From the IMG/VR virus record IMGVR_UViG_3300005918_000002, positions 1 through 58,935 of that record: a stretch of 58,935 bases of DNA; one strand, 5' to 3'. Below, piece by piece: positions 338-25,693 of the stretch (the first letter of the stretch is position 1; the number at the start of each line of letters is the position of its first letter). Both the position numbers and the translations under genes were made by a program. A model generated the notes under the pieces. It was given only the letters and a program-made list of their open reading frames with translations. It did no database searches and was not told the DNA's origin. The stretch comes from a virus. Its lineage: Duplodnaviria > Caudoviricetes.

Positions 338-607
338 ATGGCGTGGGGTTCAAAAAAAACATTTGAAATGAGGGACGGAACTACCGGGGCTGTTGATACG
401 GCCAGCTATACAGTACAAGCGCAACCGACAAATCAAACATTCCCAACGGGTGCGGTTTCATTAGCTCAAAAAACAGTCGATCAGGAAATCTGGGGATTAG
501 CCGCCGACAGCCTGACAGATGACATACATTACAAAATTTATATTGATACGGTGGAAACAGATACTCTTTGGTTTGCACCTACATCAATACCAGCAACTGG
601 AGGTTAA
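338..607 (+). CDS. Small putative virion/tail protein
   Basis: GGAG RBS; 89 aa; lies between tail genes. Confidence 0.6.
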   Translation: MAWGSKKTFEMRDGTTGAVDTASYTVQAQPTNQTFPTGAVSLAQKTVDQEIWGLAADSLTDDIHYKIYIDTVETDTLWFAPTSIPATGG

Positions 608-608
608 A

Positions 609-7383: not shown

Positions 7384-7674
7384 ATGAAAAATTTAACAGT
7401 AGTTGGTACTGGCAGTTACGATCATATGCCAGAACCTGCGGTCTATCAAAATTTAACAGGACTAACACTAGAGCAAGCATTAAAAGTTTTGCGAAGTGAA
7501 TCCTGGGGGAACATAGGCGAATTATCCCAAACCGATTTATCAGACGGCACATTTTTAGAGGTTAATTTAACGCCGGCGTCTGATGGTAATAGCAGGTATA
7601 TAAATAGCCAACGGGTTGAACGTTTTAAATATATAGACGGGTTTCCTAAAACTTTACGTAGATATTATATTTGA
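7384..7674 (+). CDS. Hypothetical protein
   Basis: GGAGG RBS; 96 aa. Confidence 0.55.
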   Translation: MKNLTVVGTGSYDHMPEPAVYQNLTGLTLEQALKVLRSESWGNIGELSQTDLSDGTFLEVNLTPASDGNSRYINSQRVERFKYIDGFPKTLRRYYI

Positions 7675-7688
7675 TGGGGAGAAATGAC

Positions 7689-8282
7689 ATGAAGATTAAA
7701 ATTGACATTTTACGTTGGGACACGGGAGAATTAATTTATTCATATGAATGCGAAGAGAACACGATAAAGATAACACTTGAAAGAGGTGTAAATGAAAAGA
7801 TTGATTTTTTCCGGGCGGAACTGAACTGGGCGGAACTGAACGGGGCGAAACTGAACGGGGCGAAACTGAACTGGGCGAAACTGAACGGGGCGGAACTGAA
7901 CGGGGCGAAACTGAACCGGGCGGAACTGAACTGGGCGAAACTGAACGGGGCGGAACTGAACCGGGCGGAACTGAACTGGGCGAAACTGAACGGGGCGGAA
8001 CTGAACTGGGCGGAACTGAACCGGGCGGAACTGAACTGGGCGGAACTGAACTGGGCGGAACTGGATTTTTCTTCATGGGGATTAAGCTGTAACACATTAA
8101 ATACATTGCTTGATCAAAGGCTAATTGTACAACTATTATTTCATGCTGCAAAACCATGTGAAAATAATAAAATAAAAATTGATGCCGATGTAAGGCGATT
8201 ATTCAAGTCGAAAATTTTTATAAAAATATTGCAGAAATTTCACCGCCAAGACGTTAAGGAATATACCGGGAATTTAAAATAA
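7689..8282 (+). CDS. Pentapeptide repeat protein
   Basis: 17 consecutive (W/G/R)A(E/K)LN-type repeats. Confidence 0.9.
   Translation: MKIKIDILRWDTGELIYSYECEENTIKITLERGVNEKIDFFRAELNWAELNGAKLNGAKLNWAKLNGAELNGAKLNRAELNWAKLNGAELNRAELNWAKLNGAELNWAELNRAELNWAELNWAELDFSSWGLSCNTLNTLLDQRLIVQLLFHAAKPCENNKIKIDADVRRLFKSKIFIKILQKFHRQDVKEYTGNLK
7812..8066. repeat. 15-bp tandem repeat, 17 units
   Basis: (t/g/c)GGGCG(g/a)AACTGAAC units encoding the pentapeptides. Confidence 0.95.
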
Positions 8283-13578: not shown

Positions 13579-13642
13579 CACTAACGTTGTAGATATAATT
13601 GGTGGATGGTTTTCACCATCCATTTCATATCGCTTGTTATGT
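13579..13642. mobile_element. attC-like site A
   Basis: CACTAAC...GATATAA/TT-C-ATATC...GTTATGT around a TGGATGGT/ACCATCCA hairpin; near-identical to site I. Confidence 0.75.
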
Positions 13643-13670
13643 TGCACAATGAAAGAACCGGAGATTATGT

Positions 13671-14486
13671 ATGATTGAAAGTAACGATAAAAGAGATTCT
13701 GTGGGTGGGGGTAGTTCCCTTTCCCCTGCTTGTACTCTTTTGCTCGGCGATTGTTTGGAAGTAATGAAGGATATACCAGACGGATCAATAGATGCGATTA
13801 TAACAGACCCGCCTTATGGAACTACTGCTTGTAAATGGGATAGTATTATTCCCTTAGAACCTATGTGGGGGCAGTTAAAGCGGGTCATCAAGCCGAACGG
13901 TGCTATCGTTATGACAGCAAGCCAGCCGTTCACCACAACCCTGATAGCGTCTAATATGAAGATGTTTAAGTATTGCTGGGTGTGGGATAAGCGAGTAGCA
14001 TCTAATTCTCAGCTTGCTAAGATTCAGCCACTAAAGATTCACGAAGATATTTGTGTTTTTGGTGTCGGCAGAATCACATACAATCCACAAGGTCTTACTG
14101 ATTGCAATATAAGCAAGAGTAATAAGAACAGAAGTAAAGGAGTTGGTCACGTTGGCAGTGAATCAAAAAGGGAAAGTTTTACCCAAACAAAAACAGGCTA
14201 TCCTAAGTCAATCCAAAACTTTAAGCCAAATAATATCGGCAAAATGCACCCAACTCAAAAGCCAGTAGCCCTAATGGAGTATCTAATTAAAACATATACT
14301 AACGAGAATGAAACAGTATTAGATTTTGCAATGGGAAGCGGAACAACTGGCGTAGCGTGTAAGAATCTAAATCGTAATTTCATAGGCATAGAAAAAGAAG
14401 AGAAGTATTTCAACATTTCAAAGGATCGTATTTCCCTAATCCCTAAAGGGGGTGGGAATTGCGATCAAACAGCATTAGCAATATAA
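13671..14486 (+). CDS. DNA N6-adenine/N4-cytosine methyltransferase (beta class)
   Basis: GDCLEVM, DPPY, HPTQKP and LDFAMGSGTT motifs. Confidence 0.93.
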   Translation: MIESNDKRDSVGGGSSLSPACTLLLGDCLEVMKDIPDGSIDAIITDPPYGTTACKWDSIIPLEPMWGQLKRVIKPNGAIVMTASQPFTTTLIASNMKMFKYCWVWDKRVASNSQLAKIQPLKIHEDICVFGVGRITYNPQGLTDCNISKSNKNRSKGVGHVGSESKRESFTQTKTGYPKSIQNFKPNNIGKMHPTQKPVALMEYLIKTYTNENETVLDFAMGSGTTGVACKNLNRNFIGIEKEEKYFNISKDRISLIPKGGGNCDQTALAI

Positions 14487-14538
14487 CCATTTCATAACCT
14501 GCCATGTTTCACCGGTCAGGTTGATGAACAGGTTAGAA
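14481..14538. mobile_element. attC-like site B
   Basis: ATATAAC..TTCAT-AACCTG-CC / GG-T-CAGGTT-G-ATGAA..GTTAGAA; MTase stop codon lies within TAAC. Confidence 0.85.
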
Positions 14539-14589
14539 AAATAATAAAAAAGAATGGTAAATATTAATCACAACAGGTGGAGGGGCAAA

Positions 14590-14874
14590 ATGAAATTCAG
14601 TATGAGAATTGGCGATTTTGAATTGAAATCATGTAATCAATATTTAACATCACTTGGTGAACACACAACAGCAGAAATAGTTCAATGGTCAAAAGATGAG
14701 ACAACGGGGAGGCTTTATTGTTGGACTATTGCATGCTGGCGTGAAGACAAAGAGGGATTTGATTTATATTTTATAGATAGTAGACCGTTTGAATGTGATG
14801 CCGAAACATTTTTTAAATTAGCAAAAACGGGACAAATATTTTTAACGGAATATCTGGAAAAGAAGTCAAGTTGA
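14590..14874 (+). CDS. Hypothetical protein
   Basis: GGAGGGG RBS; flanked by an 18-bp imperfect direct repeat. Confidence 0.55.
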   Translation: MKFSMRIGDFELKSCNQYLTSLGEHTTAEIVQWSKDETTGRLYCWTIACWREDKEGFDLYFIDSRPFECDAETFFKLAKTGQIFLTEYLEKKSS

Positions 14875-15135
14875 CATTAATCATAACAGGTAGGGAGGTG
14901 AGATAATTTGAGCTATATAATAACTGCGGATGTCTATTTAGACGAAGAAGAGAATTCATATGGTGAAATTGTAAAAGTAAATGCACGGATTTTATCTAAA
15001 CAGGGATCTTGTATAACTTTTGATATTGCCGGAGATCATTCGAGAAAACGAAAAAGAACAAAGATGTTGTGTGATACACTTATAAATGCAGGGTTTTATT
15101 CATTTAATATACGGCATTCTTATTAAAGGGCAAAT

Positions 15136-16368
15136 ATGACAACAATTTTTGACAATCCTCCACCCCAAGCAATTGATGCGGAAATGTCCGTGCTTGGATC
15201 AATACTGCTTGACAATAAAGTAATAAATATTGTAAAGCTATTACCAAAGCATTTTTACAGAACTTCGCATCGCCAGATATTTCAAGCTATGTTAAACATG
15301 GATAACCAGCCTATTGATATTATCTCGCTTGAGGAGCAGTTGAAAAAAGAAAAGTTGCTTGAAGAAATTGGCGGTTCATATTATCTAACAGAGCTTGCAG
15401 AATCCGTTCCCTCTGCGGCCAATGTTTATGAACATGTGAAAATCGTAATGGAAAAATATACACTAAGGCAAATAATTGAACTGGCATATAACGCAACTAA
15501 GGAAGCGAACGACCTTAATGAGTCAGGCGCAATAATAGATTCATTCTGTAATAAACTTGTTGAGCTATCAATTGCAGAGGTTAGGTCTGATCACATATCA
15601 GAGGCCTTGCATGAATTTAATGATTATGTAGACAGGAAACAAGCTGGCGAAATTGTAGACGTAAAAGTTCCGTTCATTGATAATTTTGAGGAAGGTGAAG
15701 TTATTGTTTTGGCGGCACGTCCCAGTCACGGTAAAACTTCGCTTGCTACCCAGATACTTTTTGAGTGTAATGTTCCGGCTGGTTTAATATCAATGGAAAG
15801 CACAAGAAAAAAAATAGCCGGTAGGATGTTGGCGCAACTTTCGCGAATTGATTCTAAAAAATTAAGTAGGGGAATGCTTGAGGGTGCAGACGTTGCGAGT
15901 GTAATTCAGGCATCCACCGAATTGGCAGAAGCACCAATATATCTTGATTTTGCATCTGATAAGATTTATGAAGTATTGGCTACTGGTCATAGATGGATAA
16001 AAGAACACAATATAAAATTATTAATCATTGATTATCTTCAGCTGATACGTGGAGGTAAAAGCGAAAGTAAGAATATAGAGATTGAAAATATTTCCAGGTC
16101 TTTGATGAGATTTGCAAAAAGAACCGGTGTACCCTTATTGATTTTATCACAATTAAGCCGGGATGGAAAGGTTAAACCGGGGCTTGAACATTTACGAGGT
16201 TCAGGAGCAATTGAGCAGGATGCCGACAGGGTTATATTTATTCGTCGACTTCACATCGAAAATGTCAGTGAGGTAATAATTGAAACGGCGAAATATAGAG
16301 ATGGTGAAATCGGCGAAATACTATTACATTTTAGGAAGGAAATGATGTTGTTTAATAAAGATTTTTAA
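15136..16368 (+). CDS. dnaB: Replicative DNA helicase DnaB-like
   Basis: PPQAIDAEMSVLGSIL N-terminus, AARPSHGKT, IIDYLQL, LSQLSR and LRGSGAIEQDAD motifs. Confidence 0.95.
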   Translation: MTTIFDNPPPQAIDAEMSVLGSILLDNKVINIVKLLPKHFYRTSHRQIFQAMLNMDNQPIDIISLEEQLKKEKLLEEIGGSYYLTELAESVPSAANVYEHVKIVMEKYTLRQIIELAYNATKEANDLNESGAIIDSFCNKLVELSIAEVRSDHISEALHEFNDYVDRKQAGEIVDVKVPFIDNFEEGEVIVLAARPSHGKTSLATQILFECNVPAGLISMESTRKKIAGRMLAQLSRIDSKKLSRGMLEGADVASVIQASTELAEAPIYLDFASDKIYEVLATGHRWIKEHNIKLLIIDYLQLIRGGKSESKNIEIENISRSLMRFAKRTGVPLLILSQLSRDGKVKPGLEHLRGSGAIEQDADRVIFIRRLHIENVSEVIIETAKYRDGEIGEILLHFRKEMMLFNKDF

Positions 16369-16411
16369 AGTGAAAATAAAACTTGTTTTTTAATAAAACC
16401 TAGGGGTGTAA

Positions 16412-16633
16412 TGATAACGTTCAAAGATAACCTGCCTTGCGGTGGTCGGGCATAATTGAAAGGATTTAATGATATGGATATAGTTGATGCACTTCAAGAG
16501 TATTTAGACAAAACAAATCTTGGGAATAATTTACTTTTAGATGATTTATTGTGTTCATCGAGGGATGTTATCAAAGAGTTGAGGGAGGCGGGGCAAGGTG
16601 AGTTGGGCGGTAATCAAGATGGGGTGGTTATTG
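16412..16633. mobile_element. attC-like site C (long loop, degenerate right arm)
   Basis: Left arm TGATAACGTTCAAAGATAACCTG matches site F from AAC onward; CCTTGC/GCAAGG pairing; right box GTTATTG at 16627. Confidence 0.5.
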
Positions 16634-16785
16634 ATATAAAGACGGCATTTGCTTTAGCGCACCCGAATATGTTTAGACCTGAACCGGTGTATGGTTGCAA
16701 GGCATGTAATCGACAAGTCGTACTTGAGAGTGACGACTATTGCCCAAAGTGTGGTGTAAAAATAACTTGGGTGGGAAAATCTTGA
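16474..16785 (+). CDS. Hypothetical protein with C-terminal zinc ribbon; starts inside the loop of site C
   Basis: CKAC...YCPKCG. Confidence 0.55.
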   Translation: MDIVDALQEYLDKTNLGNNLLLDDLLCSSRDVIKELREAGQGELGGNQDGVVIDIKTAFALAHPNMFRPEPVYGCKACNRQVVLESDDYCPKCGVKITWVGKS

Positions 16786-16789
16786 TTCC

Positions 16790-16865
16790 GAATAACAGTT
16801 ATATTCACCGGCGGAAGGCTGGGACGTGGGCGGAAGGGCCGTCCGTGTACAATATTTGGTTATCT
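16790..16865. mobile_element. attC-like site D
   Basis: GAATAAC..ATATTCACCGGCGG / CCGTCCGTGTA-C-AATAT..GTTATCT. Confidence 0.65.
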
Positions 16866-16902
16866 TTTTCGCCCCTAATCCCTAAGTTAATCAATAAATG
16901 TC

Positions 16903-16931
16903 TTGACATTAACAAATGATATATGTATATT
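16903..16931 (+). promoter_or_regulatory. Sigma70-like promoter
   Basis: TTGACA-N17-TATATT. Confidence 0.7.
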
Positions 16932-16940
16932 AAAATAACG

Positions 16941-17176
16941 AAAAATTGAGGGGAAAACGTAATTGAGATCATTGGGAAATTTGGACGCGCAACTTGTTGA
17001 AAGGTTATAGTAGCGAGTAGCAGCCATGTGCCATAGGCAATCTTGGCCCCGTATGGGTAGCAAATTAACCGGAAGGACAAGCTCTGTGAAGACTGGATAG
17101 CAGCCGACGAACAACTCGGAAATTCCCCAGCGAACGAGCCAACACAAAATGGTACTGAGGACACCCCTCAATTTTT
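16941..17176 (+). ncRNA. Candidate structured ncRNA (~236 nt), family unassigned
   Basis: Begins about 10 nt after the -10 box; perfect 13-bp closing stem AAAAATTGAGGGG/CCCCTCAATTTTT; GC-richer than flanks; no + strand ORF in the ORF track. Confidence 0.55.
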
Positions 17177-17191
17177 ATTAAGGAAAATTAA

Positions 17192-17341
17192 ATGCCAGCA
17201 CCTAAAAAGAAGCATCCAAAACAGCCATTAGGAATTCGCCTTCACCCTTTCATAATTAAGCGGTTAAGAAAAGAGGGTAAATATAATGCACTTATTCAGC
17301 GTTTATTATGTGAATATTTCGGTATAGACCTTGGCGAATAA
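17192..17341 (+). CDS. Ribbon-helix-helix-like small DNA-binding protein, 49 aa (not in ORF track)
   Basis: MPAPKKKHPKQPLGIRLHPFIIKRLRKEG...LCEYFGIDL; paralogous to the ORFs at 19900 and 21591. Confidence 0.6.
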   Translation: MPAPKKKHPKQPLGIRLHPFIIKRLRKEGKYNALIQRLLCEYFGIDLGE

Positions 17342-17487
17342 ATATAACGACCCAAATAACCGGCTTTGCCGGGAAGGGAATTTAAAATGAGTTTATTTGA
17401 CGAGGCTACCGAAAGAATGTTAGACGACGAAGAGAGAGAGAGGATATTGGCGGCGGAGCAAAGTCCGTGTTCATTACCGTGTTCTAC
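17342..17487. mobile_element. attC-like site E (ORF start in loop)
   Basis: ATATAAC..AAT-AACCGG-CTTTGC / GCAAAG-T-CCGTGTT-C-ATT..GTTCTAC. Confidence 0.75.
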
Positions 17488-17695
17488 AGGGGATAGTCGG
17501 GACGGGAAGGGTGGCCTTAAAAATGGTGGGTGGTTTAAGAATGAACGCGAAAGTAAGGTGCCGTGCAGGAATTGCCGTTGTCCACATTGGGGTGACAAAT
17601 ACAATCAAAGTTGTGGTGCGTCTGATATAATAAGTGAAAAATGCGCAATGATTTGTGAGGAATACATACCGAAAAGATTGGTGGGGGATTTTTAA
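17387..17695 (+). CDS. Cys-rich hypothetical protein starting in the loop of site E
   Basis: GGGAAGGG RBS and ATG 17387; reads through the right arm of the site. Confidence 0.55.
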   Translation: MSLFDEATERMLDDEERERILAAEQSPCSLPCSTGDSRDGKGGLKNGGWFKNERESKVPCRNCRCPHWGDKYNQSCGASDIISEKCAMICEEYIPKRLVGDF

Positions 17696-17699
17696 GTGT

Positions 17700-17921
17700 G
17701 TAGAACGTTCAAAGATAACCTGCGAAATGGCGGGGGAAGGAATTGGAAAAGATGGATTTAGATAAAAAATATTATACCAGTGAATACATTGAATGTAATA
17801 TACTTCAACTCGTAAAAATGGAACCAGAGTGGGCGGCTTATAGGATACAAGCAGGAGAGAAAGCAATTGAACAGCTTGAGGGTGAGGCGGGGATTTCGTC
17901 AGGTTCATCTAGTGGTTCTAC
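17700..17921. mobile_element. attC-like site F (ORF start in loop)
   Basis: GTAGAAC..AGAT-AACCTG-CGAAAT / ATTTCG-T-CAGGTT-C-ATCT..GTTCTAC. Confidence 0.85.
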
Positions 17922-18219
17922 AGTGGGGGGCGGTGTGGTGATGGATGGCATTAAAAAATTCATGGGTGGAAGGGCTTGTTTAAAGATTGGCGATGGATCA
18001 ACACTTATCAGTGAAGCCCATTATAAGGACAGTATTGATAATGTCCTCGTATTGACGCAATATCACGAGTGTAGAAAAATAGGGTCAGAGCTAAAAGGTT
18101 CTGCCGGCAACCCTGCTACCAACAACGGCACAGTACTTGAAATAGTATTTACAAACTCCACTTCTGTACAAGTTGTAATAGACGCACTAGTTAAAATAAA
18201 AGCGGCCCTTGGGGAATGA
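17752..18219 (+). CDS. Hypothetical protein starting in the loop of site F
   Basis: ORF reads through the right arm (GISSGSSSGST). Confidence 0.55.
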   Translation: MDLDKKYYTSEYIECNILQLVKMEPEWAAYRIQAGEKAIEQLEGEAGISSGSSSGSTVGGGVVMDGIKKFMGGRACLKIGDGSTLISEAHYKDSIDNVLVLTQYHECRKIGSELKGSAGNPATNNGTVLEIVFTNSTSVQVVIDALVKIKAALGE

Positions 18220-18231
18220 ATTATTTAATGT

Positions 18232-18289
18232 GTAGAACCACTTCATAACCTGCCACGTTTCACCGGTCAGGTTGATGAACATGTTAGAA
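18232..18289. mobile_element. attC-like site G
   Basis: Near-identical to site B; GTAGAAC...GTTAGAA. Confidence 0.85.
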
Positions 18290-18310
18290 AATCGGAGAGG
18301 AGTAATTATT

Positions 18311-18505
18311 ATGAGTTGCTGGACAAAAGAAGAACTGGAAAACATGCTTGAAGATGTTGTTAATGAGTTAGAGTTGTCCGGTTCTATATTAGAAGAACAT
18401 GGGCCATTAGGAACACCGCCAGCTGAATTGGTTAGGCTTGTATTGGATGAGAAGGATAAAATCATATCAGCACAAAAAGCCGGATTAAAAATTATATTTT
18501 CTTAA
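18311..18505 (+). CDS. Hypothetical protein (cassette G-H)
   Basis: GAGGAG RBS and ATG 18311. Confidence 0.55.
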   Translation: MSCWTKEELENMLEDVVNELELSGSILEEHGPLGTPPAELVRLVLDEKDKIISAQKAGLKIIFS

Positions 18506-18506
18506 C

Positions 18507-18730
18507 ATATAACATTGGGCTCACCGATTTAGCGGTGGGGAAAGGATAGAATACTATGAGCGTACCAATTAGACATTTAAAACAAGCTTTGGCAATTATG
18601 GGTGTTTCAACCCCAGAAAGTCTTGAGGAATTTAGACAAGATGAATTAAAATGGATTAACAAGCTTGTTTTTACCGTAGTAATATTTGGGGATGAAGGGG
18701 CAAAATCCGCCGTGCAGCCAGTGGTTAGCC
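18507..18730. mobile_element. attC-like site H (ORF start in loop)
   Basis: ATATAAC..GGCT-CACCGATTTAGC / GCAAAATCCGCCGTG-C-AGCC..GTTAGCC. Confidence 0.65.
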
Positions 18731-18897
18731 AAGACGGAGCGGCGGCAAAGGTTGATATTATTCGTCCACTTATTGATGATACCATGAAATATCACAGAAC
18801 GGCGAACAGTAGAGCGAGTAAATTACTAACTGCATTGAATATTAGTGTTGATGCAGTTAAGGAGATACTTAAAGAGTGGGTTGATCGGAGTCAGTAA
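18556..18897 (+). CDS. Hypothetical protein starting in the loop of site H
   Basis: AAGGA RBS; reads through the right arm (AKSAVQPVVS). Confidence 0.55.
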   Translation: MSVPIRHLKQALAIMGVSTPESLEEFRQDELKWINKLVFTVVIFGDEGAKSAVQPVVSQDGAAAKVDIIRPLIDDTMKYHRTANSRASKLLTALNISVDAVKEILKEWVDRSQ

Positions 18898-19056
18898 GAA
18901 GAGGTAAACCATGAAAAACCTTATAAGAAAAATCGGTGAAACAATAATGTTTATCATTGAGTTTTTAGTAACTCTGTTAGGATATGGCCTGTTTGATTTT
19001 AAAGATGGGTTAGAATCTTATGGTAAACCAAAGTATATTAAAATACGGGGGACGAA

Positions 19057-19545
19057 ATGAAAAGGCAAAATTTATTTAAGGCGGCCATTTGCAGTTTTAT
19101 CCTGGCGGTAATTGCAATCATTCTTTTTTCCGGATGCCGTGACGATACGGCAGTTTGGAAACGTATTGCAGAATTGGAAAAGAAGCAAGTCGCAACGGAG
19201 GCCGCTCTTGACAGTGTGGTTTTCAAGGCGGAATTGAGACGAGAAATAAATACAGTCTGGCTCGGAATCGACGGGCTGGATGAAGAAATTATTGACATTG
19301 AAACCCGGCAAGCGGCAATAATGAACCGTCTTGCAAAGTTGGAAGTTGATACCGGGGGAATTATACTTATTTGGAATGAGAATAAATTCGATCCCCGGCG
19401 GCCAGTATACGGATACCGGATTTATTTAGGAAATCACTTGATCTGGGCAGGTCAGGACACATCCGTAACGCTGGAAAATTTAAGGTATTCGGCGTATAAT
19501 TCTGCCGGGGAATCGTTTGGTTTGGAGAAGGTGAGGATAAAATGA
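19057..19545 (+). CDS. Putative lipoprotein
   Basis: Signal peptide with LFSG-C lipobox; Fn3-like fragments YGYRIY..SAYNSAGES. Confidence 0.6.
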   Translation: MKRQNLFKAAICSFILAVIAIILFSGCRDDTAVWKRIAELEKKQVATEAALDSVVFKAELRREINTVWLGIDGLDEEIIDIETRQAAIMNRLAKLEVDTGGIILIWNENKFDPRRPVYGYRIYLGNHLIWAGQDTSVTLENLRYSAYNSAGESFGLEKVRIK

Positions 19546-19607
19546 ATATTTTTTCACGCCTAACCCCTTGTTTCTGTTGCCCTCTTTGAAAATAGTTGAA
19601 AAAAGAC

Positions 19608-19636
19608 TTGACTTTAATCTAAATGATTAGTATATT
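19608..19636 (+). promoter_or_regulatory. Sigma70-like promoter
   Basis: TTGACT-N17-TATATT; shares AAAAAAGACTTGACTTT context with the 6744 promoter. Confidence 0.7.
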
Positions 19637-19899
19637 TATAGTGTCATGAGAGACCAAACTAAAAAAAACGAGGAAAAGAAAGTGACAGCGATACAACAAG
19701 AATTGAAAAGATATGCAGAGATAAGAGCGCAATTATATCAGATTAAAGGTTTTGGGGGGACATCAATTAACGCTGCTATATCTTATGCCGTTGCTGATAT
19801 GATTAATGAACTCAATAATTTTGCAACCAATAAGGTTGAATATTTAAAAAGCGAAAACGAATATCTTTTAGGGTGTATATCGAAATTAAAGGAAGTAGC

Positions 19900-20268
19900 A
19901 TGAGAGGCGGCAAACGAGAAGGGGCCGGACGCAAGCCCAAGCCCGATAAAAAGAAGCCCGTATCTTTTCGCCTTCATCCTAAACTGATTGAACGGTTGAA
20001 GAGAGAAGAAAACCAAGCAAGTGCAATTGAAAAGGCATTGTGCCGATGGTTCGGTATAGACCTTGATGAGCAAGAGACAGAAAAAGAGGGCAAGGCAATG
20101 AAGATAGTTAGAATTAATGAAATTATTTTAAGGGCCAATACTTATCCAACATATTTTGTAGATTATAAGATAGGTAAGGACTGTTGGAAAAATTATGGTA
20201 GTTCTTGTGTCTATGCGGCTGCATTAGAAATGAAAAAACAAATAAATTCCGGGGAAATAGTACTATGA
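19900..20268 (+). CDS. Ribbon-helix-helix-like DNA-binding protein, apparently fused to a second small domain
   Basis: RGGKREGAGRKP...VSFRLHPKLIERL. Confidence 0.65.
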   Translation: MRGGKREGAGRKPKPDKKKPVSFRLHPKLIERLKREENQASAIEKALCRWFGIDLDEQETEKEGKAMKIVRINEIILRANTYPTYFVDYKIGKDCWKNYGSSCVYAAALEMKKQINSGEIVL

Positions 20269-20904
20269 TTTTTAGAGTTAAATTTAAGATAGATGGAAAT
20301 GAAAAATCCGCAATTGAGCCAGAATGTGGATGGTTTTTAATTGACCAACAGGGAAAGTTTTATAGTTATGGGCCATGTTCACCTGTAAAACCTGTTGAAA
20401 GTTGCATTAAAGAAATAGAGCCTTTAATATTAATAAACAATGAGTACTTGACAATTGAAGAGATAGAAGAAAGGATTAATAAATTTTGAATATTTCGAGA
20501 TAGACCTTGATGAATAAAAGATGAGGATTGAATGAAGGTTATAAAGTGTAAAAAATGTGGTATGACCTTGTGGCTCAAGGCTGATAGTAAAAAGAAATGC
20601 CACATTCCTAAACGATGTTCATTTTGTGGAGAATATTACATCTTGATGAATAAAAGGATGAAAGAGCAAGTAACACAATGATTCTAAATAATATTATATT
20701 TAATAATCGGTTATTTCGTATATTCGACAAAAAGAAACAGACCTACTGGGAAATTCTCTGCCGGATTGATTATGACACAGAAGAGATAACCGTTATAAAC
20801 AGGGGTGACGAAGACGAAACAACTGTTTTTTTTGGAGATGTATTGATTCATGGTGATATTTCAGCAACCTTGATAAATAAACAAATAAAAACGGGGAGTT
20901 TAAA

Positions 20905-21285
20905 ATGAAAGTCAGAATGAGCGCGCAAATGATTGATGATAATAACATCTTGATTCAACTTAATTTCTCAGGAAAAGGCGTTGATAGCGCTGAAATGATT
21001 GGAAGCGAAGCAAAAAAATATCAAGCAGAAGTACAAAAAATTGATTATGAGGATCAAATGAAAGTTACAATCAGAACCGCAGACATTAAACGGCACGGCA
21101 CAACTATTTTGCTTGGCCAAAAACGAACGGCAACCGAAGGGCGTGAGGGTAACCTGAAAACACTTAACATCCGCGAGAATGGTAAACACATTAAATCTTT
21201 TAGAGGCAGTTCTCTTGGTTTTTGTAATCCTCTTACAGATAAGGATAAGGATTATTTGGCCTCGCTCGGAAGCAATATTGAATAA
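20905..21285 (+). CDS. Hypothetical protein
   Basis: GGGGAG RBS; 126 aa. Confidence 0.5.
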   Translation: MKVRMSAQMIDDNNILIQLNFSGKGVDSAEMIGSEAKKYQAEVQKIDYEDQMKVTIRTADIKRHGTTILLGQKRTATEGREGNLKTLNIRENGKHIKSFRGSSLGFCNPLTDKDKDYLASLGSNIE

Positions 21286-21590
21286 AGACAACCAGACGGT
21301 TTTAAATTTATGCCGCCGCAAAATATCTGGAAGCTACTAAAGCACACTTGTAAAAAAGGAGACAAAATGGGACAGGATGAAACTTATTTTTATGACGGGC
21401 AAAAAGTAGAAGCTCTTCATTTTGAAGATGGGACACACTGGACCGTTGGCCAGTCAGGGATTGAGAAGATTATTGTAATCATGGAAAACGGAGAGATGGC
21501 AAGTGTTGTGTGGTTTGGCGTTTATAAAGACGGAAAATTAACATTTAAACAAAATCGTAAGTTTGTTAGCCACGCAACTATGGTTAAAAT

Positions 21591-21782
21591 ATGAGGGGCG
21601 GCAAACGACTAGGGGCTGGACGCAAACCGGCCCTTCACAAAAAGCGGATGGTATCTTTTCGACTTCATCCAAAATTGATTGAACGGTTGAAGATGGAAAA
21701 TAATCAGGCCAGTGCAATTGAAAAGGCATTATGCCAATGGTTTAATATAGATCTTCAACAAGGAGACAATGAGCAACTTTGA
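21591..21782 (+). CDS. Ribbon-helix-helix-like DNA-binding protein (paralog of 19900)
   Basis: RGGKRLGAGRKP...VSFRLHPKLIERLK..NQASAIEKALC. Confidence 0.7.
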   Translation: MRGGKRLGAGRKPALHKKRMVSFRLHPKLIERLKMENNQASAIEKALCQWFNIDLQQGDNEQL

Positions 21783-22208
21783 TAAAATGACCAGAAATCC
21801 ATCCACTGGCAAATTACAAAAAGCTAGTTGGATAGATAACTATTTTGGGAATCATATATACGGAGTTCAATTCCCGGATGGTAAAATCTGGAATGAAAAA
21901 GATATTAAAGATATTGAAGGGGATGTAGAGGAGATTACAATAATTGAACATGATGGGTTCCATTGCGGTGTCTGTGGTAAATGGGTAGCCAGGAAAAAGA
22001 AAGTATCTCAGTTTGCTGTTCAATGGTGGGACATCTGGGGACTATGTGACAGGTGCGATAATTGCAGGGGAGGGGATTTAAAATGAGAAATGTAATAAAG
22101 TGTACAAACGAAATTCATGTGATATTAAAAAAATATAAGTGTAAGAATGGTGATAAGTGCAGTAAATGCGGCAATACTGAATTGAGTAGTGATGAAACTT
22201 TTTAGCAT

Positions 22209-22272
22209 GCATAACGTTGGAGATATAATTGGTGGATGGTTTTCACCATCCATTTCATATCGCTTGTTATGT
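22209..22272. mobile_element. attC-like site I
   Basis: GCATAAC...GTTATGT; near-identical to site A. Confidence 0.8.
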
Positions 22273-22309
22273 TTTTCACCCCTATAACCAAAGAATGGAA
22301 AGGATTAGA

Positions 22310-22870
22310 ATGAAGGTGTTAATTGCTTGTGAATATTCCGGTGTAGTGCGTGACGCATTTATTAAGAGAGGCCACGATGCAGTGAGTTGTGACATTTTAC
22401 CAACAGAGAGATCCGGGCCCCATTATATGGGTAATGTTTTACCCCTATTGGGTGAAGGGTGGGATCTTATGATTGCTCATCCACCGTGTACAAGATTATG
22501 TAACTCAGGTGTTTGCTGGCTTGACAAAAGGAACCTTTGGGACGAAATGAGAGAGGGGGCCCGGTTTTTCAAAACTTTACTAAATGCGGACATACCTAGA
22601 ATTGCTATAGAGAATCCTATACCACATGGTTATGCGGTGAGAGAGATTGGTAAAAAATATGATCAGATTATACAGCCTTGGCAATTCGGGCACGGGGAGA
22701 CAAAGGCCACTTGTCTATGGCTAAAGAACTTGCCAAAATTAGAACCAACTAGAATTGCTAAAGGAAGAGAGCAGCGATTGCACATGTTGCCGCCTTCTAA
22801 AGATAGGGCGAAGTTGAGGAGTAAAACGTATTTTGGTATCGCTGACGCAATGGCAATTCAATGGGGTTGA
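22310..22870 (+). CDS. Short phage-type DNA cytosine methyltransferase-like protein
   Basis: VLIACEYSG, SCD, HPPC and IENP motifs (C5-MTase motifs I/IV/VI-like); GIADAMAIQW C-terminus. Confidence 0.8.
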   Translation: MKVLIACEYSGVVRDAFIKRGHDAVSCDILPTERSGPHYMGNVLPLLGEGWDLMIAHPPCTRLCNSGVCWLDKRNLWDEMREGARFFKTLLNADIPRIAIENPIPHGYAVREIGKKYDQIIQPWQFGHGETKATCLWLKNLPKLEPTRIAKGREQRLHMLPPSKDRAKLRSKTYFGIADAMAIQWG

Positions 22871-22888
22871 CCTATACCCTGTGAATAA

Positions 22889-22946
22889 ATATAACGCCCA
22901 TTATCAGCGGCGGGCGTTTATCGTCCGCTGCATAATTTTGTTATAA
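22889..22946. mobile_element. attC-like site J
   Basis: ATATAAC..ATTAT-CAGCGG-CG / CG-T-CCGCTG-C-ATAAT..GTTATAA. Confidence 0.85.
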
Positions 22947-22962
22947 TTGGAGGGAATATAAA

Positions 22963-23148
22963 ATGAATGAATACGATGTAAAAAGATTAGCTTTGATTTT
23001 GGCCATACAAGCAGACATTGAAGGAATGAAAATTGAAAACAAGGTTAGGTTGAGTAACAATCAATCACCAGCATATCCCGATGGTGAATTTATGATGAAA
23101 TCGGAAGAATTAAGAGAACTGGCCTATAAACACAATGAACAATTATAA
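22963..23148 (+). CDS. Hypothetical protein (cassette J-K)
   Basis: GGAGGG RBS; stop codon within the TAAC of site K. Confidence 0.65.
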   Translation: MNEYDVKRLALILAIQADIEGMKIENKVRLSNNQSPAYPDGEFMMKSEELRELAYKHNEQL

Positions 23149-23222
23149 CGTTGGTGCTTACCGGCAAATAGGCGGTAAGGAATTGGCTGTGACGGGTTGC
23201 CGCGTACAGCACTTTGTTAGCC
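23143..23222. mobile_element. attC-like site K
   Basis: TTATAAC..GTGCT-TACCGGCAA / TTGCCGCGTA-C-AGCAC..GTTAGCC. Confidence 0.8.
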
Positions 23223-23280
23223 TTAGAGAATGTGGCGTACAGAGCCACGCTTATGAACGGCGTACACGAGGGAAGATGAC

Positions 23281-24237
23281 TTGAATATGTTAGACTTATT
23301 TTCAGGAATCGGCGGATTTCGATTAGCAGCGCAAAGGGTTTGGGGGGAATCTCTAAACTGTAAATGCATGGTAGAGCTTGACCCGTTCTGTCAAAAGGTA
23401 CTTATGAAAAATTGGCCAGGAGTGACAATACATGACGACATTAAAACATTCAAGGGGAGCGGATGGGGAACAATTGACATTCTTACCGGGGGGTTTCCAT
23501 GCCAACCGTTTAGTGTTGCCGGGAAGCAGGGAGGCCGGGAGGATGACCGTTACCTCTGGCCTGAAATGCTCCGCGTTATTAAAGAAGCAAAGCCCCGTTG
23601 GGTTGTTGGGGAAAATGTTACTGGAATCATCAATCTGGCACTCGACGACGTGCTTACTTCGTTGGAAGGTGAGGGGTACGAGACAGAAACGTTTATTATT
23701 CCAGCTTGCGGTGCGGACGCCAAACACAGAAGGAACCGAGTCTGGATTGTTGCCAACAATGAGGGGTCGTTTGACGGGCAACCTATCCCCAAAGAGGTGT
23801 GGGGACAAATTCAACAACTTAGAATCAGTGTTGAGTCGGCAAATGTGGCCAACCCCAAGTGTAAACGAGCCGGGGTGGAAATACAGGACACCAGTAGACA
23901 AGAATGGAAATGCACCAACCCATCACAATCAAAGATGGTACGACAAGGAAACGGGGCGGTTAATGCAGAAAGGATTGGAGCATGCAGTGAAGATGTGGCC
24001 GACAATGACCGCTTGCGAATGGAAGGGGAGAGGCCCGAACAGCAAACAAAAGGGATTAACGAACGCAATTGGATGTACGGGTGGGAGCCTGAACCCTCAG
24101 TGGGTCGAGTGGCTGATGGGATACCCTCAAGGGTGGACAGACTTAAATCACTCGGAAACTCAATAGTGCCGCAAGTGGCTGAACGAATTTTCTGGGGGTT
24201 GCGCTGTGTAGAAGAGGCATTGTGTACGCAAGGCTAA
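23281..24237 (+). CDS. DNA (cytosine-5)-methyltransferase, large subunit
   Basis: DLFSGIGG, GGFPCQPFS, ENV, HRRNRVW and LGNSIVP motifs. Confidence 0.93.
   Translation: MNMLDLFSGIGGFRLAAQRVWGESLNCKCMVELDPFCQKVLMKNWPGVTIHDDIKTFKGSGWGTIDILTGGFPCQPFSVAGKQGGREDDRYLWPEMLRVIKEAKPRWVVGENVTGIINLALDDVLTSLEGEGYETETFIIPACGADAKHRRNRVWIVANNEGSFDGQPIPKEVWGQIQQLRISVESANVANPKCKRAGVEIQDTSRQEWKCTNPSQSKMVRQGNGAVNAERIGACSEDVADNDRLRMEGERPEQQTKGINERNWMYGWEPEPSVGRVADGIPSRVDRLKSLGNSIVPQVAERIFWGLRCVEEALCTQG
23432..24166 (+). CDS. Nested alternative-frame ORF, putative second C5-MTase subunit (motif IX-like)
   Basis: 244 open codons inside the MTase gene; GGAG upstream; LNPQWVEWLMGYPQGWT C-terminus. Confidence 0.65.
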   Translation: MTTLKHSRGADGEQLTFLPGGFHANRLVLPGSREAGRMTVTSGLKCSALLKKQSPVGLLGKMLLESSIWHSTTCLLRWKVRGTRQKRLLFQLAVRTPNTEGTESGLLPTMRGRLTGNLSPKRCGDKFNNLESVLSRQMWPTPSVNEPGWKYRTPVDKNGNAPTHHNQRWYDKETGRLMQKGLEHAVKMWPTMTACEWKGRGPNSKQKGLTNAIGCTGGSLNPQWVEWLMGYPQGWTDLNHSETQ

Positions 24238-24291
24238 CCACTTCATAACCTGCCGCTGTAGTCCACGGTCAGGTTCATGAACAGGTTAGAC
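24232..24291. mobile_element. attC-like site L
   Basis: GGCTAAC..TTCAT-AACCTG-CCG / CGG-T-CAGGTT-C-ATGAA..GTTAGAC; MTase stop codon within TAAC. Confidence 0.85.
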
Positions 24292-24556
24292 AAAATAAAG
24301 GAGAGTAAATATTTGATAAAGCCACATGTCTTCCGAGTAGTTCACGGCAAGGGTGAATTACTAGAGGGAGGAGAAGTTACCAGGTATCGGGGAATGAATT
24401 TCCATACCTGCAATATAAAAAGTAAAAAGAATATCTGCCAGTGGTGTGGCGAGCTTACGGATAACGAGAGGTTTTGCACAACCGGCCACATGTGGAAACA
24501 TCGGAAAAAGGTGAAACGTTACGCAAAGAACGTAACATAAAAAACGGATTGTTATA

Positions 24557-24979
24557 ATGAAAGAACTCCCATTTTCAAAACAGAAACAAGTTGGACGGGG
24601 TGCTATAGACGTAACGGAATATCGTAATATGGTATGCAAAGAAGCTGATCTTCAACGGCAAGCAGAGGAGTATTTACAGGTTCAAGGTATACCATTTATC
24701 AGGGTACCTGATGCGATATACAAAGCGATTTTTTCAAGCCGAACAATTAAGCCATATATTAAAGCGTTGATTTCAAGATTCATTAAGGGTTTGCCGGATC
24801 TTATAATTTTAGACCCCGCTGGCCGCTGGAATAGGGCCTGTTGTATTGAATTAAAATCGGCAACTGGAAAATTATCGCAGGGCCAAAAGAATTTTGCTAA
24901 ACGAGTTAATGTAGTTGTCAAGCGTAATTTTGAAGATTTTGTAAAAGAAGTTGAAGAGTTTTTAAACGGGAAGGAATAG
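24557..24979 (+). CDS. VRR-NUC domain nuclease
   Basis: EADLQ, GLPDLI and IELKSATGKLSQGQ motifs. Confidence 0.85.
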   Translation: MKELPFSKQKQVGRGAIDVTEYRNMVCKEADLQRQAEEYLQVQGIPFIRVPDAIYKAIFSSRTIKPYIKALISRFIKGLPDLIILDPAGRWNRACCIELKSATGKLSQGQKNFAKRVNVVVKRNFEDFVKEVEEFLNGKE

Positions 24980-24988
24980 AGATTCTTG

Positions 24989-25017
24989 TTGACTTTTACG
25001 ATAATTTTCAGTAGATT
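24989..25017 (+). promoter_or_regulatory. Sigma70-like promoter
   Basis: TTGACT-N17-TAGATT. Confidence 0.55.
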
Positions 25018-25045
25018 AATAGTGTATAAATAACGGGTTAAGTAA

Positions 25046-25693
25046 ATGTTAGAATTGAATAAAATTTACAACATGGACAATATGAAAGGTATGGCGCATT
25101 TTTCTGATAACTATTTTGAGTTGGCGATAGTCGACCCGCCGTATGGGATAAATCGAAGTAAAAATTTTGGCATGAAAGAATTTGGATGGGTTCAACACAA
25201 GCGGTCTGAATGGGATTCTGAAAAACCAAAGCCTGAATACTTTAAGGAATTGTTTAGGATTTCGGAAAACCAAATAATATGGGGTGGGAATTATATGGTT
25301 GAACATTTAAAGCCATCAATGGGTTGGGTGTTTTGGGATAAGGGACAGAGAAAGTTTTCTACCAGCGATGGAGAGTTGGCGTATACGAGTTTCAATAAAA
25401 AGTTAAAAGTTTTCAATTTAAGCCGGGCTGGTGCGTTGTCGGATAATGGGGGCAAGCCAATACACGCCACTCAAAAGCCCATAAAGCTCTACAAATGGCT
25501 ACTCCACAACTACGCCAAACAAGGCGACAAGATACTTGACACTCATTCCGGATCAGCCAGTTTAGCAATAGCCTGTGAATGGATGGGATTTGATTATATC
25601 GCATTTGAAACAGATATAGACTATTGGACTGACAGCTTAAAAAGATTAGAACAGGAACGGCAGAAGATGCAACAGATAAAAATGGAGTTATAA
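25046..25693 (+). CDS. DNA N6-adenine/N4-cytosine methyltransferase
   Basis: DPPY, HATQKP and LDTHSGSAS motifs. Confidence 0.9.
   Translation: MLELNKIYNMDNMKGMAHFSDNYFELAIVDPPYGINRSKNFGMKEFGWVQHKRSEWDSEKPKPEYFKELFRISENQIIWGGNYMVEHLKPSMGWVFWDKGQRKFSTSDGELAYTSFNKKLKVFNLSRAGALSDNGGKPIHATQKPIKLYKWLLHNYAKQGDKILDTHSGSASLAIACEWMGFDYIAFETDIDYWTDSLKRLEQERQKMQQIKMEL

What the first reader, a model, noticed from the sequence alone, without database searches (positions are those of the whole stretch)
16412..18730. Recombination-like sites with genes starting inside their loops
Seen: sites C (222 bp), E (146), F (222) and H (224) have loops holding a purine-rich RBS and an ATG. The ORF then reads through the right arm (EQSPCSLPCST, GISSGSSSGST, AKSAVQPVVS) into the downstream unit. 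C and F share GAGGCGGGG before the right arm, and K keeps an F-like GGCGG..AAGGAATTGG loop without a long ORF. Established: natural attC sites are usually ~55-140 bp with non-coding loops. Inference: the loop is a second cargo slot, and read-through yields two-part chimeric proteins. This fits the inverted polarity, since loop and downstream segment stay in one unit.
Basis: partly seen in the sequence, partly recalled or inferred. Interest (0 to 1): 0.82.

Follow-up and report, generated by a model that had tools for sequence, protein, structure and literature searches.

The report
Phage attC-like sites enclosing gene starts
A salt-lake phage carries a row of integron-type folded recombination-like sites, and in at least two of them the loop has grown to hold a gene's ribosome-binding site, start codon and first protein segment, so that the site's far arm is translated as a linker inside a two-part protein.

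Summary
The window is a complete 58.8-kb phage genome. Its early region (13.5-24.3 kb) holds 12 imperfect palindromes built like integron attC sites: AAC/GTT outer box, unpaired spacer, inner stem with extra bases at fixed places, variable loop. The phage has no integrase, so this is a CALIN-like array, a kind already reported in phages. Of the four long sites, F (220 nt) is solid: it is the best arm pair in the genome and is predicted to fold. E (144 nt) has exact attC geometry but is not predicted to fold. H is weak. C has only a credible left arm. All four loops do hold an SD and an ATG, and the ORFs do read through the proposed right arm. The two-part reading is shown for F only. Its loop-encoded 43 residues recur in other metagenome proteins with unrelated tails, or alone. 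Its post-arm half resembles free-standing 88-101-aa viral proteins. These fusions also occur in relatives without visible arms. My best reading: the unpaired loop became the translation start zone of the downstream gene, and the 3' arm became a linker. Site K shows a leader-ORF intermediate. This is a new variant of a known kind. Recombination is untested.

The parts
13580..13643 (+). Site A (short, 62 nt), 98% identical to site I; precedes the N6/N4 methyltransferase gene
   Evidence: (repeat family D7)
14482..14540 (+). Site B (56 nt). The TAA stop of the methyltransferase lies inside its TAAC box. Extra bases G16 and T23 on the 3' arm.
   Evidence: D9; P 0.96-0.99
16412..16438 (+). Site C left arm, a genuine F-like arm (AACGTTCAAAGATAACCTGC shared with F)
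   Evidence: score 40 against noise of about 21
16606..16633 (+). Claimed right arm of C, inside ORF 16474-16785. Not distinguishable from chance.
   Evidence: 0.80 expected by chance; P <=0.02; no alignment
16474..16785 (+). ORF starting in the C 'loop' (103 aa); the C-terminal part is a zinc ribbon
   Evidence: phrog_10714, E 3.9e-6; no homologue other than itself
16791..16865 (+). Site D (74 nt), a weak hairpin with a bulge at position 16
17343..17487 (+). Site E (144 nt). R box TATAAC/GTTCTA, spacer of 5-6 nt on each arm, L stem 17355-17369 paired with 17458-17475, with unpaired C16, T20 and T24. The loop holds an SD and ATG 17387.
   Evidence: (0.024 expected by chance). Against: P 0.01 in folding.
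17387..17695 (+). ORF of E (102 aa), reading through the 3' arm (..EQSPCSLPCST..) into a Cys-rich C-terminal part
   Evidence: no informative homologue
17699..17922 (+). Site F (220 nt). R box TGTAGAAC/GTTCTACA, L stem 17713-17728 paired with 17893-17910, with unpaired C16 and T23. The loop of about 165 nt holds an SD, ATG 17752 and 47 codons.
   Evidence: (top score in the genome)
17752..17880 (+). Loop-encoded N-terminal module of the F ORF (residues 1-43), found elsewhere with other tails or alone
17941..18219 (+). Post-arm half of the F ORF, from internal ATG 17941 (after GGGGGG). It resembles free-standing 88-101-aa viral proteins.
   Evidence: (phrog_31900, E 0.002, profile positions 3-88 of 101)
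18231..18291 (+). Site G (56 nt), 93% identical to B. Its left arm is the inverted match of F's right arm.
   Evidence: D9; score 29
18508..18730 (+). Site H (222 nt), a weak candidate. The left arm is K-like. The right arm ends in the same GTTAGCC as K and has a bulge at 16. The loop holds an SD and ATG 18556.
   Evidence: 0.42 expected by chance; P <=0.03
18556..18897 (+). ORF of H (113 aa), reading through the proposed arm (..AKSAVQPVVS..)
   Evidence: no homologue other than itself
22210..22273 (+). Site I (62 nt); precedes a methyltransferase gene (phrog_757)
22890..22946 (+). Site J (56 nt). Bulges on the 5' arm; also terminator-like.
23144..23222 (+). Site K (78 nt). The TAA stop of the upstream ORF lies inside its TAAC box. 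The loop shares GGCGG..AAGGAATTGG with F. Unpaired bases at 16 and 20.
23189..23284 (+). 31-codon leader ORF. It starts at a GTG in K's loop, reads through K's 3' arm and stops 2 nt before the C5-methyltransferase ATG at 23287.
24233..24293 (+). Site L (58 nt). The TAA stop of the C5 methyltransferase lies inside its TAAC box. C16 and T23.
   Evidence: (z -5.7)

Best explanation
The four 'sites' belong to a 12-site array of integron-type (attC-like) folded sites in the early region of a complete, integrase-less phage genome. The array is CALIN-like, and its bottom-strand-like features lie on the gene-sense strand. In that orientation each site sits in the 5' leader of the gene it travels with, so its stem would hinder ribosome loading. 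In some units the translation start zone (SD plus start codon) lies in the only unpaired, sequence-free part of the site, the variable loop. The ribosome then melts the 3' arm by translating it.

K shows the short form: a 31-codon leader ORF from the loop that ends 2 nt before the methyltransferase ATG. F and E show the fused form, and H less surely. There the loop-started ORF runs in frame through the 3' arm, which encodes a Gly/Ser/Cys-rich linker, into the downstream domain and gives a two-part protein. In F the loop part is a real 43-aa protein module and the downstream part a once-independent small protein. C keeps only the left arm and is probably a decayed site.

Shown here: the anatomy, the arm statistics, the geometry and the mosaic nature of F. 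Inferred: recombination at the sites, which strand is used, translation of the ORFs, and the ribosome-access rationale.
For: Array and geometry. All 12 AAC boxes start 0-48 nt after a + strand stop codon, and three stops lie inside TAAC. Short sites fold as R box, internal loop, bulged stem and loop (B, I, J and L have z -2.2 to -5.7). An unpaired base sits at position 16 on the arm opposite AAC in 8 of 12 sites on the + strand, 0 of 12 on the - strand, and 3 of 52 chance candidates. B, F and L have 16 and 23 with a 6-bp stem between; E has 16/20/24. PMC5027507 (passages) gives EHBs at 16, optionally 20, and 23/24, a 6-bp stem between first and last, a spacer of 5-6 nt, and AAC on the other arm.

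Cassette signature. The 6 nt after GTT of site n are complementary to the 6 nt before AAC of site n+1 in 47 of 66 positions, against 33 of 72 within the same site. In 100,000 permutations the mean was 29.0, sd 3.9, and the maximum 45.

Long sites. F scores 36, the genome's best, and folds at P 0.92-0.98. E has 0.024 expected chance hits.

Mosaic F. See for the N module with other tails or alone. P0005's tail is a separate 56-aa ORF in L002 (58% identity over 48 aa, E 2.7e-15). See for the post-arm half.

K leader ORF.

Precedents read. Phage CALINs carrying methyltransferase cassettes (PMC9892861, abstract and section 3.4). Short ORFs in attC that relieve the stem's block on translation, and fused cassettes giving bifunctional proteins (PMC8876359, passages). 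Synthetic attC sites that work as peptide linkers (PMC7439510, passages).
Against: No tyrosine recombinase, serine recombinase or Y1 transposase is encoded anywhere in the contig, which is 100% complete by the record's estimate. Any recombination would therefore need a host enzyme, and the host is unknown.

The extended consensus RYYYAAC/GTTRRRY is only partly met; only (T)AAC/GTT(A) is constant. A, I and J carry their bulges on the 5' arm.

The arms of E, H and C are not predicted to pair (P <=0.03). The left arms of E, H and K prefer local hairpins. C has no right arm by my measures.

Under RNA parameters F's right arm prefers G's left arm (0.96) over F's own (0.04).

Strand asymmetry and G.T pairs on the + strand would equally fit an RNA structure, and the whole genome is G-rich on that strand.

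I saw no arms around the N-module in L001-L003 (by eye; scan), so the fusions do not depend on a site.

The position numbering (outer end of GTTxxxx taken as 1) is my assumption. No dedicated attC detector (IntegronFinder, HattCI) could be run.
Confidence: 0.5

Rival explanations
1. The palindromes act in the phage's polycistronic early mRNA, not in DNA. They would be processing, stability or translation-control hairpins in the 5' leaders. The long F and E structures would enclose the start region to tune translation.
For: All sites lie on the sense strand in leaders. The bulges and G.T (G.U) pairs sit on that strand. The + strand folds better than the - strand in 6 of 8 sites tested. SD sequences directly follow local hairpins in E, H and K. 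J looks like an intrinsic terminator.
Against: The match between each site's tail and the next site's head across whole genes (47 of 66, beyond 100,000 permutations) has no obvious RNA role. The invariant AAC/GTT, the 5-6-nt spacer and the 16/20/23-24 bulge positions with a 6-bp stem match the DNA site of integron integrases point by point. No Rfam family matches.
Confidence: 0.2
2. The long 'sites' are scars of cassette fusion, not working sites. Two neighbouring units lost the inner arms between them, including the TAAC box that carried the stop codon. The left arm of one site and the right arm of the next now flank a former small gene that reads into its neighbour. The right arms are decaying under coding constraint.
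For: Fused cassettes formed by partial attC loss, some giving bifunctional proteins, are documented (PMC8876359, passages). Stops sit inside TAAC in 3 sites, so losing a left arm removes a stop. The N module is a free-standing 57-aa gene in L002 and L003. The four sites form a decay series: F intact, E weaker, H weak, C gone.
Against: F's arms are the best-matched pair in the genome and keep the 16/23 bulges. E keeps exact 16/20/24 geometry. That is unexpected for drifting leftovers. K's loop shares the SD-bearing stretch with F, so the SD in the loop seems old.
Confidence: 0.2
3. The right arms are over-read chance matches. Only the intergenic left elements are real, and the ORFs are ordinary genes.
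For: C and H are within chance on arm complementarity (0.80 and 0.42 expected). The genome-wide scan gives 18 rows (16 AAC positions) scoring >=26 outside 13-25 kb. E's right arm is not above noise in plain similarity to F's (score 21 against noise of 23).
Against: F cannot be chance (score 36; no null site reached it). TGTAGAAC occurs 6 times against 1.0 expected, four of them within 750 bp in alternating orientation. E's three bulges fall at 16/20/24. The tails of E and F match the next heads in 5 of 6 positions each.
Confidence: 0.05

Closest known systems
Integron attC sites in clusters lacking an integrase (CALIN), as reported in phages (Qi et al. 2023, PMC9892861; abstract and section 3.4 read)
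   Same: Imperfect palindromes with an AAC/GTT R box, spacer, bulged L stem and variable loop. They form an array between genes, with no integrase on the element. DNA methyltransferase genes sit as cassettes; here three of the four are bracketed by sites.
   Different: There are 12 sites. The bulges lie on the gene-sense strand, so the sites are flipped relative to classical cassettes. Two to three sites are 144-222 nt long, beyond the 57-141 bp range, and their loops are coding. The extended consensus is only partly met, and recombination is untested.
Short ORFs inside attC sites and fused gene cassettes in class 1 integrons (review PMC8876359, passages read)
   Same: A start codon inside the site lets ribosomes pass the stem and couple to the next gene, as in K's leader ORF. 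Loss of site parts fuses neighbouring genes into bifunctional proteins.
   Different: Here the ORF begins in the loop, carries a real protein module (in F), and uses an intact 3' arm as the linker. The site is kept rather than deleted.
Synthetic attC sites embedded in peptide linkers and lacZ (Nivina et al. 2020, PMC7439510, passages read)
   Same: Site arms double as coding sequence for a flexible inter-domain linker.
   Different: Those sites are designed, 60-70-nt sites lying wholly inside a gene. Here the sites are natural, only the 3' arm is translated, and the loop holds the SD, the start and the first domain.
   Same: Repeated palindromes at gene borders of a mosaic region. Some are translated as part of proteins.
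   Different: Those lack the AAC/GTT box, the fixed bulge positions and the tail/head cassette signature seen here.

Membership tests
integron attC site | R box with conserved 5'-AAC-3' on one arm paired to GTT on the other | tested here: met
All 12 sites, although they were chosen on this feature.
integron attC site | Extended consensus RYYYAAC / GTTRRRY (PMC5027507) | tested here: inconclusive
   Only L's GTTAGAC fits fully. The common forms are ATATAAC, GTAGAAC, GTTAGAA, GTTATNN and GTTCTAC.
integron attC site | Unpaired central spacer of about 5-6 nt per arm between the R and L boxes | tested here: met
   Met for part of the set. E has 6/5 nt and F 6/4 nt. B, G and L have 2/2 plus one extra pair. 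H has almost none. C has about 2/9.
integron attC site | Extrahelical bases on the arm opposite AAC at positions 16, (20) and 23/24, with a 6-bp stem between first and last | tested here: met
   Position 16 in 8 of 12 sites on the + strand, 0 of 12 on the - strand, and 3 of 52 controls. B, F and L have 16+23; E has 16/20/24; K has 16/20. A, I, J and C do not fit. The start of the numbering is my assumption.
integron attC site | Length 57-141 bp with a non-coding variable loop | tested here: not met
   Met by the 8 short sites (56-78 nt). E is 144, F 220, H 222 and C 220 nt, with an SD, an ATG and 24-57 codons inside.
integron attC site | Recombined as folded single strand by an integron integrase | not testable with these tools
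   Needs an attC x attI conjugation assay.
integron attC site | Cassette signature: the bases beyond the crossover at one site belong with the R box at the far end of the same cassette | tested here: met
   47 of 66 complementary positions between tail(n) and head(n+1), against 33 of 72 within the same site; permutation maximum 45 in 100,000. Weak at B>C, G>H and H>I (2-3 of 6).
complete integron | intI (tyrosine recombinase) and attI next to the array | tested here: not met
   No Phage_integrase match at E<=1 in six frames of the whole contig; also no Resolvase or Y1_Tnp.
CALIN (cluster of attC sites lacking an integrase) | Two or more attC sites called by IntegronFinder's covariance model, with no integrase nearby | not testable with these tools
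   The model is not available here. By my structural criteria the array qualifies.
fused gene cassette | Partial or total loss of the attC between two genes, giving one unit | tested here: inconclusive
   C lacks a right arm. F and E keep both arms, but the arms flank a former free-standing gene module.

The most novel reading that the evidence does not exclude
The array is a working, flipped integron-like system in a virulent-type phage. In it the variable loop of the site is a translated module slot. Recombination at either arm (AA|C on the sense strand, or G|TT at the 3' arm) would then re-deal N-terminal modules and C-terminal domains in frame. E and F share the same GTTCTACAG box in the same codon phase, and so do H and K with GTTAGCC. 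The result would be a natural combinatorial generator of two-part early proteins, the natural counterpart of engineered attC linkers.
Probability: 0.12. Interest if true: 0.85.

Novelty: new variant of a known kind. Interest (0 to 1): 0.6.

Why it matters
Integron sites are treated as short, non-coding punctuation after genes. Here a phage carries a long array of such sites flipped in front of its genes. At least one clear case (F), and a second likely one (E), have a loop holding the ribosome-binding site, the start codon and a protein module, while the far arm is read as a linker.

If the sites recombine, a structure-specific recombination site can coexist with coding sequence in nature, which so far has only been engineered. 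It would also mean that phages can move, and perhaps re-pair, small early genes and methyltransferases as self-contained 'site + RBS + gene' units. That would give a concrete test bed for how attC stems and translation interact, and for where integron cassettes come from.

If the sites do not recombine, the finding is still a well-defined family of structured leader elements in an uncultured salt-lake phage.

Tried and rejected
Relatives of the phage were sought so that arrays could be compared.
- megablast of 12-26 kb against GenBank phages found only a 72-nt methyltransferase motif.
- tblastn of the terminase and DnaB gave <=36% identity.
- The search for related loci with DnaB in viral contigs found none.
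- Exact scans of viral contigs for the C/F left arm and the B/G/L core found 0 each.
- The N-module alignment found 0 of 147 candidate stretches in viral contigs, 0 of 105 in genome contigs and 3 of 210 in metagenome contigs.
So there is no comparative test of mobility.

Homologue searches for the E, C and H ORFs returned only the proteins themselves, plus one low-complexity hit. tblastn of F's post-arm half against phages gave no match at E<=1. C and F proteins are not homologous. None of the eight halves has a paralogue in the window.

The Rfam gathering scan of the window and an E<=1 scan of 16780-17200 found nothing. There are no tRNAs.

Contigs of four salt-lake runs were laid on 12.5-25.5 kb. 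The pieces are short and identical to the window in the E-H region. None of the 15 listed joints lies at a site border (24 more were not shown). Contigs drop rare variants, so this says nothing about excision. Two joints from 17773 to 25160 and one from 13769 to 25132 look like other organisms' sequence or methyltransferase motifs and were set aside.

A plain gapped alignment of each left arm against the next 400 nt supported only F, K and L, and was too strict for bulged stems. It was replaced by the R-box plus L-stem scan.

I did not build a covariance model of the short sites. Its hit-length limit would exclude 220-nt sites.

The equal lengths of C, F and H (220, 220, 222) looked like support for the right arms. 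However, GAGGCGGGG sits 42 nt before GTT in C and 31 nt before it in F, so the loops are not collinear. I give this little weight.

Supplementary tables of PMC9892861, which list the phage CALINs, were not opened because supplements are closed. The DNA around P0002-P0005 could therefore not be read for arms.


Full report
WHAT THE WINDOW IS. The 58,935 bases are one complete virus record with a 90-bp direct terminal repeat. The 'genome' holds only this contig and is rated 100% complete. Almost all genes lie on the + strand, and G exceeds C on that strand throughout. It has no close relative among GenBank phages or in IMG/VR. Near-identical DNA occurs in contigs of 18 public runs, all labelled salt lake metagenome. 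The region around the finding encodes an N6/N4 methyltransferase (13671-14486), DnaB (15136-16368), a phrog_757 methyltransferase (22310-22870), a C5 methyltransferase (23287-24237), a VRR-NUC nuclease and a further N6/N4 methyltransferase, among many small ORFs without family.

THE ARRAY. Between 13.5 and 24.3 kb I count 12 imperfect palindromes, A to L (coordinates in 'parts'). Each begins (T/G)AAC 0-48 nt after the stop codon of the preceding gene. In B, K and L the TAA stop lies inside the TAAC. Each ends GTT(A/C). Eight are short (56-78 nt). As single-stranded DNA, B, I, J and L fold into an outer stem, an internal loop, a bulged inner stem and a terminal loop, with z-scores of -2.2 to -5.7. 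D and G are not better than shuffles in that test.

Repeat families show that the repeated unit is the site itself. A and I are 98% alike over 62 nt, and B and G 93% over 59 nt, with unrelated flanks.

Arm sequences differ between site types, but each arm fits its own partner. Examples are CCTG/CAGG in B, G, L and F, and CCGG/CCG(T)G in E. A variant A/I-type site in a contig of run X8 has a B-like inner stem changed on both sides to CCAG/CTGG.

COMPARISON WITH attC GEOMETRY. Passages of PMC5027507 state the following for the recombined bottom strand:
- AAC, cleaved between A and C, is on one arm.
- Extrahelical bases are on the opposite arm at position 16 (usually G), sometimes 20, and 23 or 24 (T).
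- A 6-bp stem lies between the first and last of these bases.
- The spacer is 5-6 nt per arm.
- Site length is 57-141 bp.

I numbered inward from the outer end of GTTxxxx, which is my assumption. A script then found an unpaired base at 16 on the + strand's 3' arm in 8 of 12 sites (B, D, E, F, G, H, K, L). The figure was 0 of 12 when the - strand was read the same way, and 3 of 52 (either strand) among chance AAC..GTT candidates outside the array. B has G16 and T23. F and L have C16 and T23, each with a 6-bp stem between. E has C16, T20 and T24. K has 16 and 20. A, I and J carry their bulges on the other arm.

CASSETTE SIGNATURE. The six bases after GTT of site n are complementary to the six bases before AAC of site n+1 in 47 of 66 positions. 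Within the same site the figure is 33 of 72. In 100,000 random re-pairings the mean was 29.0 (sd 3.9) and the maximum 45. J>K and K>L are 6 of 6. A>B, D>E, E>F, F>G and I>J are 5 of 6. B>C, G>H and H>I are only 2-3 of 6. This is what crossover inside the R box produces in integron arrays. It does not tell which arm is cut.

NO RECOMBINASE, AND WHAT IS ALREADY KNOWN. No tyrosine or serine recombinase and no Y1 transposase is encoded. The array is thus CALIN-like. Qi et al. 2023 reported 17 CALINs in phages, including virulent ones; 5 of 6 tested sites were recombined by IntI1, and methyltransferases were among the cassettes (PMC9892861, abstract and section 3.4). The array as such is therefore a new member of a known kind.

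THE FOUR LONG SITES. The descriptive part of the finding holds. An SD and an ATG lie between the proposed arms, and the ORF reads through the right arm. The arms differ in quality.

F. The left arm 17699-17728 and the right arm 17893-17922 give the highest score in the genome (36; no null site reached it). They pair with P 0.92-0.98 in the full 222-nt ssDNA on either strand, and with 0.93 within a 971-nt context. Under RNA parameters the right arm prefers G's left arm instead (0.96), and by sequence it is even closer to G's left arm (score 29 against 25). That is expected if both are the same site type and F's tail and G's head bound one unit.

E. The score is 28, with 0.024 chance hits expected per window, and the spacing is exact (16/20/24) with 5-6-nt spacers. 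Folding nevertheless prefers a local hairpin in the left arm (P 0.01).

H. 0.42 chance hits are expected and P is <=0.03. On the other side, the left arm is K-like (score 23 against noise of 21), the right arm ends in K's GTTAGCC, and there is a bulge at 16.

C. The left arm is almost F's (score 40). The proposed right arm is within chance (0.80 expected), does not fold (P <=0.02) and gave no alignment.

My grading is F confirmed, E likely, H possible, and C a half-site.

ARE THE ORFs TWO-PART? Only F could be tested. A search with the 155-aa ORF found four metagenome proteins of 98-111 aa. They share residues 1-40/43 at 65-84% identity and then continue with tails unrelated to F's, of three kinds. 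Three metagenome loci carry the module as well. L001 has two tandem copies followed by a Cys-rich tail. In L002 and L003 it is a separate 57-aa ORF. The tail of P0005 is itself a separate 56-aa ORF 1.5 kb away in L002 (58% identity over 48 aa, E 2.7e-15).

Conservation between F and these proteins stops at about nt 17880, roughly 13 nt before the right arm's stem. The post-arm half of F matches phrog_31900 weakly (E 0.002). The match starts at profile position 3 of 101, close to an internal ATG at 17941 that follows GGGGGG. In the ESM Atlas its nearest clusters are viral proteins of 88-100 aa (score 0.92-0.93), with TM 0.73/0.75 to an 88-aa cluster over residues 70-155. These Atlas hits are leads only.

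So F is a fusion of a mobile 43-aa module, an arm-encoded Gly/Ser stretch and a once-independent small protein. I saw no AAC..GTT arms around the module in L001-L003 (by eye; scan at the threshold). Such fusions therefore happen without the site. The E, C and H ORFs have no homologues; their arm-encoded stretches merely look linker-like.

HOW IT MOST LIKELY WORKS. With the bottom-strand-like features on the sense strand, cleavage at AA|C of the 5' arm would make each mobile unit 'site + gene'. The site then lies in the gene's leader. attC stems are known to impede translation of the next gene, and short ORFs inside attC relieve this by coupling (PMC8876359, passages).

K fits that picture. Its loop carries AAGGA and a GTG at 23189. 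The 31-codon ORF runs through the 3' arm and stops 2 nt before the methyltransferase ATG. K's loop shares the SD-bearing stretch with F. I therefore read F and E (and perhaps H and C) as the fused version of the same solution: the start zone sits in the unpaired loop and the 3' arm is translated as a linker. That the arm can serve as a linker has an engineered precedent (PMC7439510, passages).

The anatomy and the mosaic nature of F are shown. Recombination, strand choice, translation and the ribosome-access rationale are inferred.

RIVALS. (1) The sites act as RNA elements in the early mRNA. The strand bias fits this; the cassette signature and the point-by-point attC geometry do not. (2) The long sites are fusion scars of two neighbouring units. 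This fits the free-standing N-module gene in L002 and the F > E > H > C decay series, but sits poorly with the intact geometry of F and E. (3) The right arms are chance matches. That is tenable for C, possible for H, and excluded for F.

A bolder reading remains open. E and F share GTTCTACAG in codon phase 2, and H and K share GTTAGCC in phase 1. Exchange at the 3' arms would therefore keep the frame and re-pair the halves.

VERDICT. The array belongs to a known kind (phage CALIN). The coding loops and the translated arm are a new variant of it. Confidence in the main reading is 0.5 and interest is 0.6.

Noticed in passing
window 16903-17185: The best sigma-70-like promoter of the region (TTGACA-17-TATATT, 11 of 12) precedes about 250 nt with no + strand ORF. 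The stretch is closed by a 13-bp helix (AAAAAUUGAGGGG..CCCCUCAAUUUUU) and a T run. Folding gives MFE -65.6 and z -2.0. There is no Rfam match at E<=1. It is a possible phage small RNA inside the D>E unit.
   Followed up: partly
window 17192-17341, 19900-20268, 21591-21782: Three paralogous small genes share the motif ..SFRLHPKLIERLK..A(L/I)..(W/Y)F(G/N)IDL. I find it ribbon-helix-helix-like by eye; no Pfam hit. They account for repeat families D2, D5 and D6. The middle copy carries an extra C-terminal part.
   Followed up: no
window 13671-14486, 22310-22870, 23287-24237, 25046-25693: There are four DNA methyltransferase genes. The first three are each bracketed by two sites (A/B, I/J, K/L), as in the methyltransferase cassettes reported for phage CALINs.
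   Followed up: partly
run X8 contig mapped to window 22228 / 13625: A contig carries an A/I-type site with the same outer arms. Its interior is replaced by a 24-nt B/G-like stem-loop in which CCTG/CAGG has become CCAG/CTGG, a change on both sides of the stem (table 5c).
   Followed up: no
window 18311-18363: The first 17 codons of the ORF after site G occur in other, more abundant contigs with different sequence on both sides. This shows as loose ends at 18311 and 18363 in X8, and as raised summed depth in bin 18142-18575. It may be another shared N-terminal piece.
   Followed up: no
L002 430-600 and 2058-2231: In this metagenome contig the two halves of protein P0005 are separate small genes 1.5 kb apart. 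L001 carries two tandem copies of the N-module fused to CxxC..CxxC tails.
   Followed up: yes
window 7753-8112: A 15-nt tandem repeat (17 registers listed) lies inside a pentapeptide-repeat protein gene, 7671-8282.
   Followed up: no
window 519-3749: A 1076-aa protein, probably a tail fibre, has an internal 93-nt repeat (2510 and 2825, 83% identical). It also has a sub-threshold match to a lectin-like receptor-binding domain family (22.7 bits against a cut-off of 23.8).
   Followed up: no
window 13583, 16416, 17704, 22213, 23147: In five of the 12 left arms the AAC is followed directly by GTT, giving the palindrome AACGTT. Its meaning is unknown; a methylation or restriction target is one guess.
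   Followed up: no
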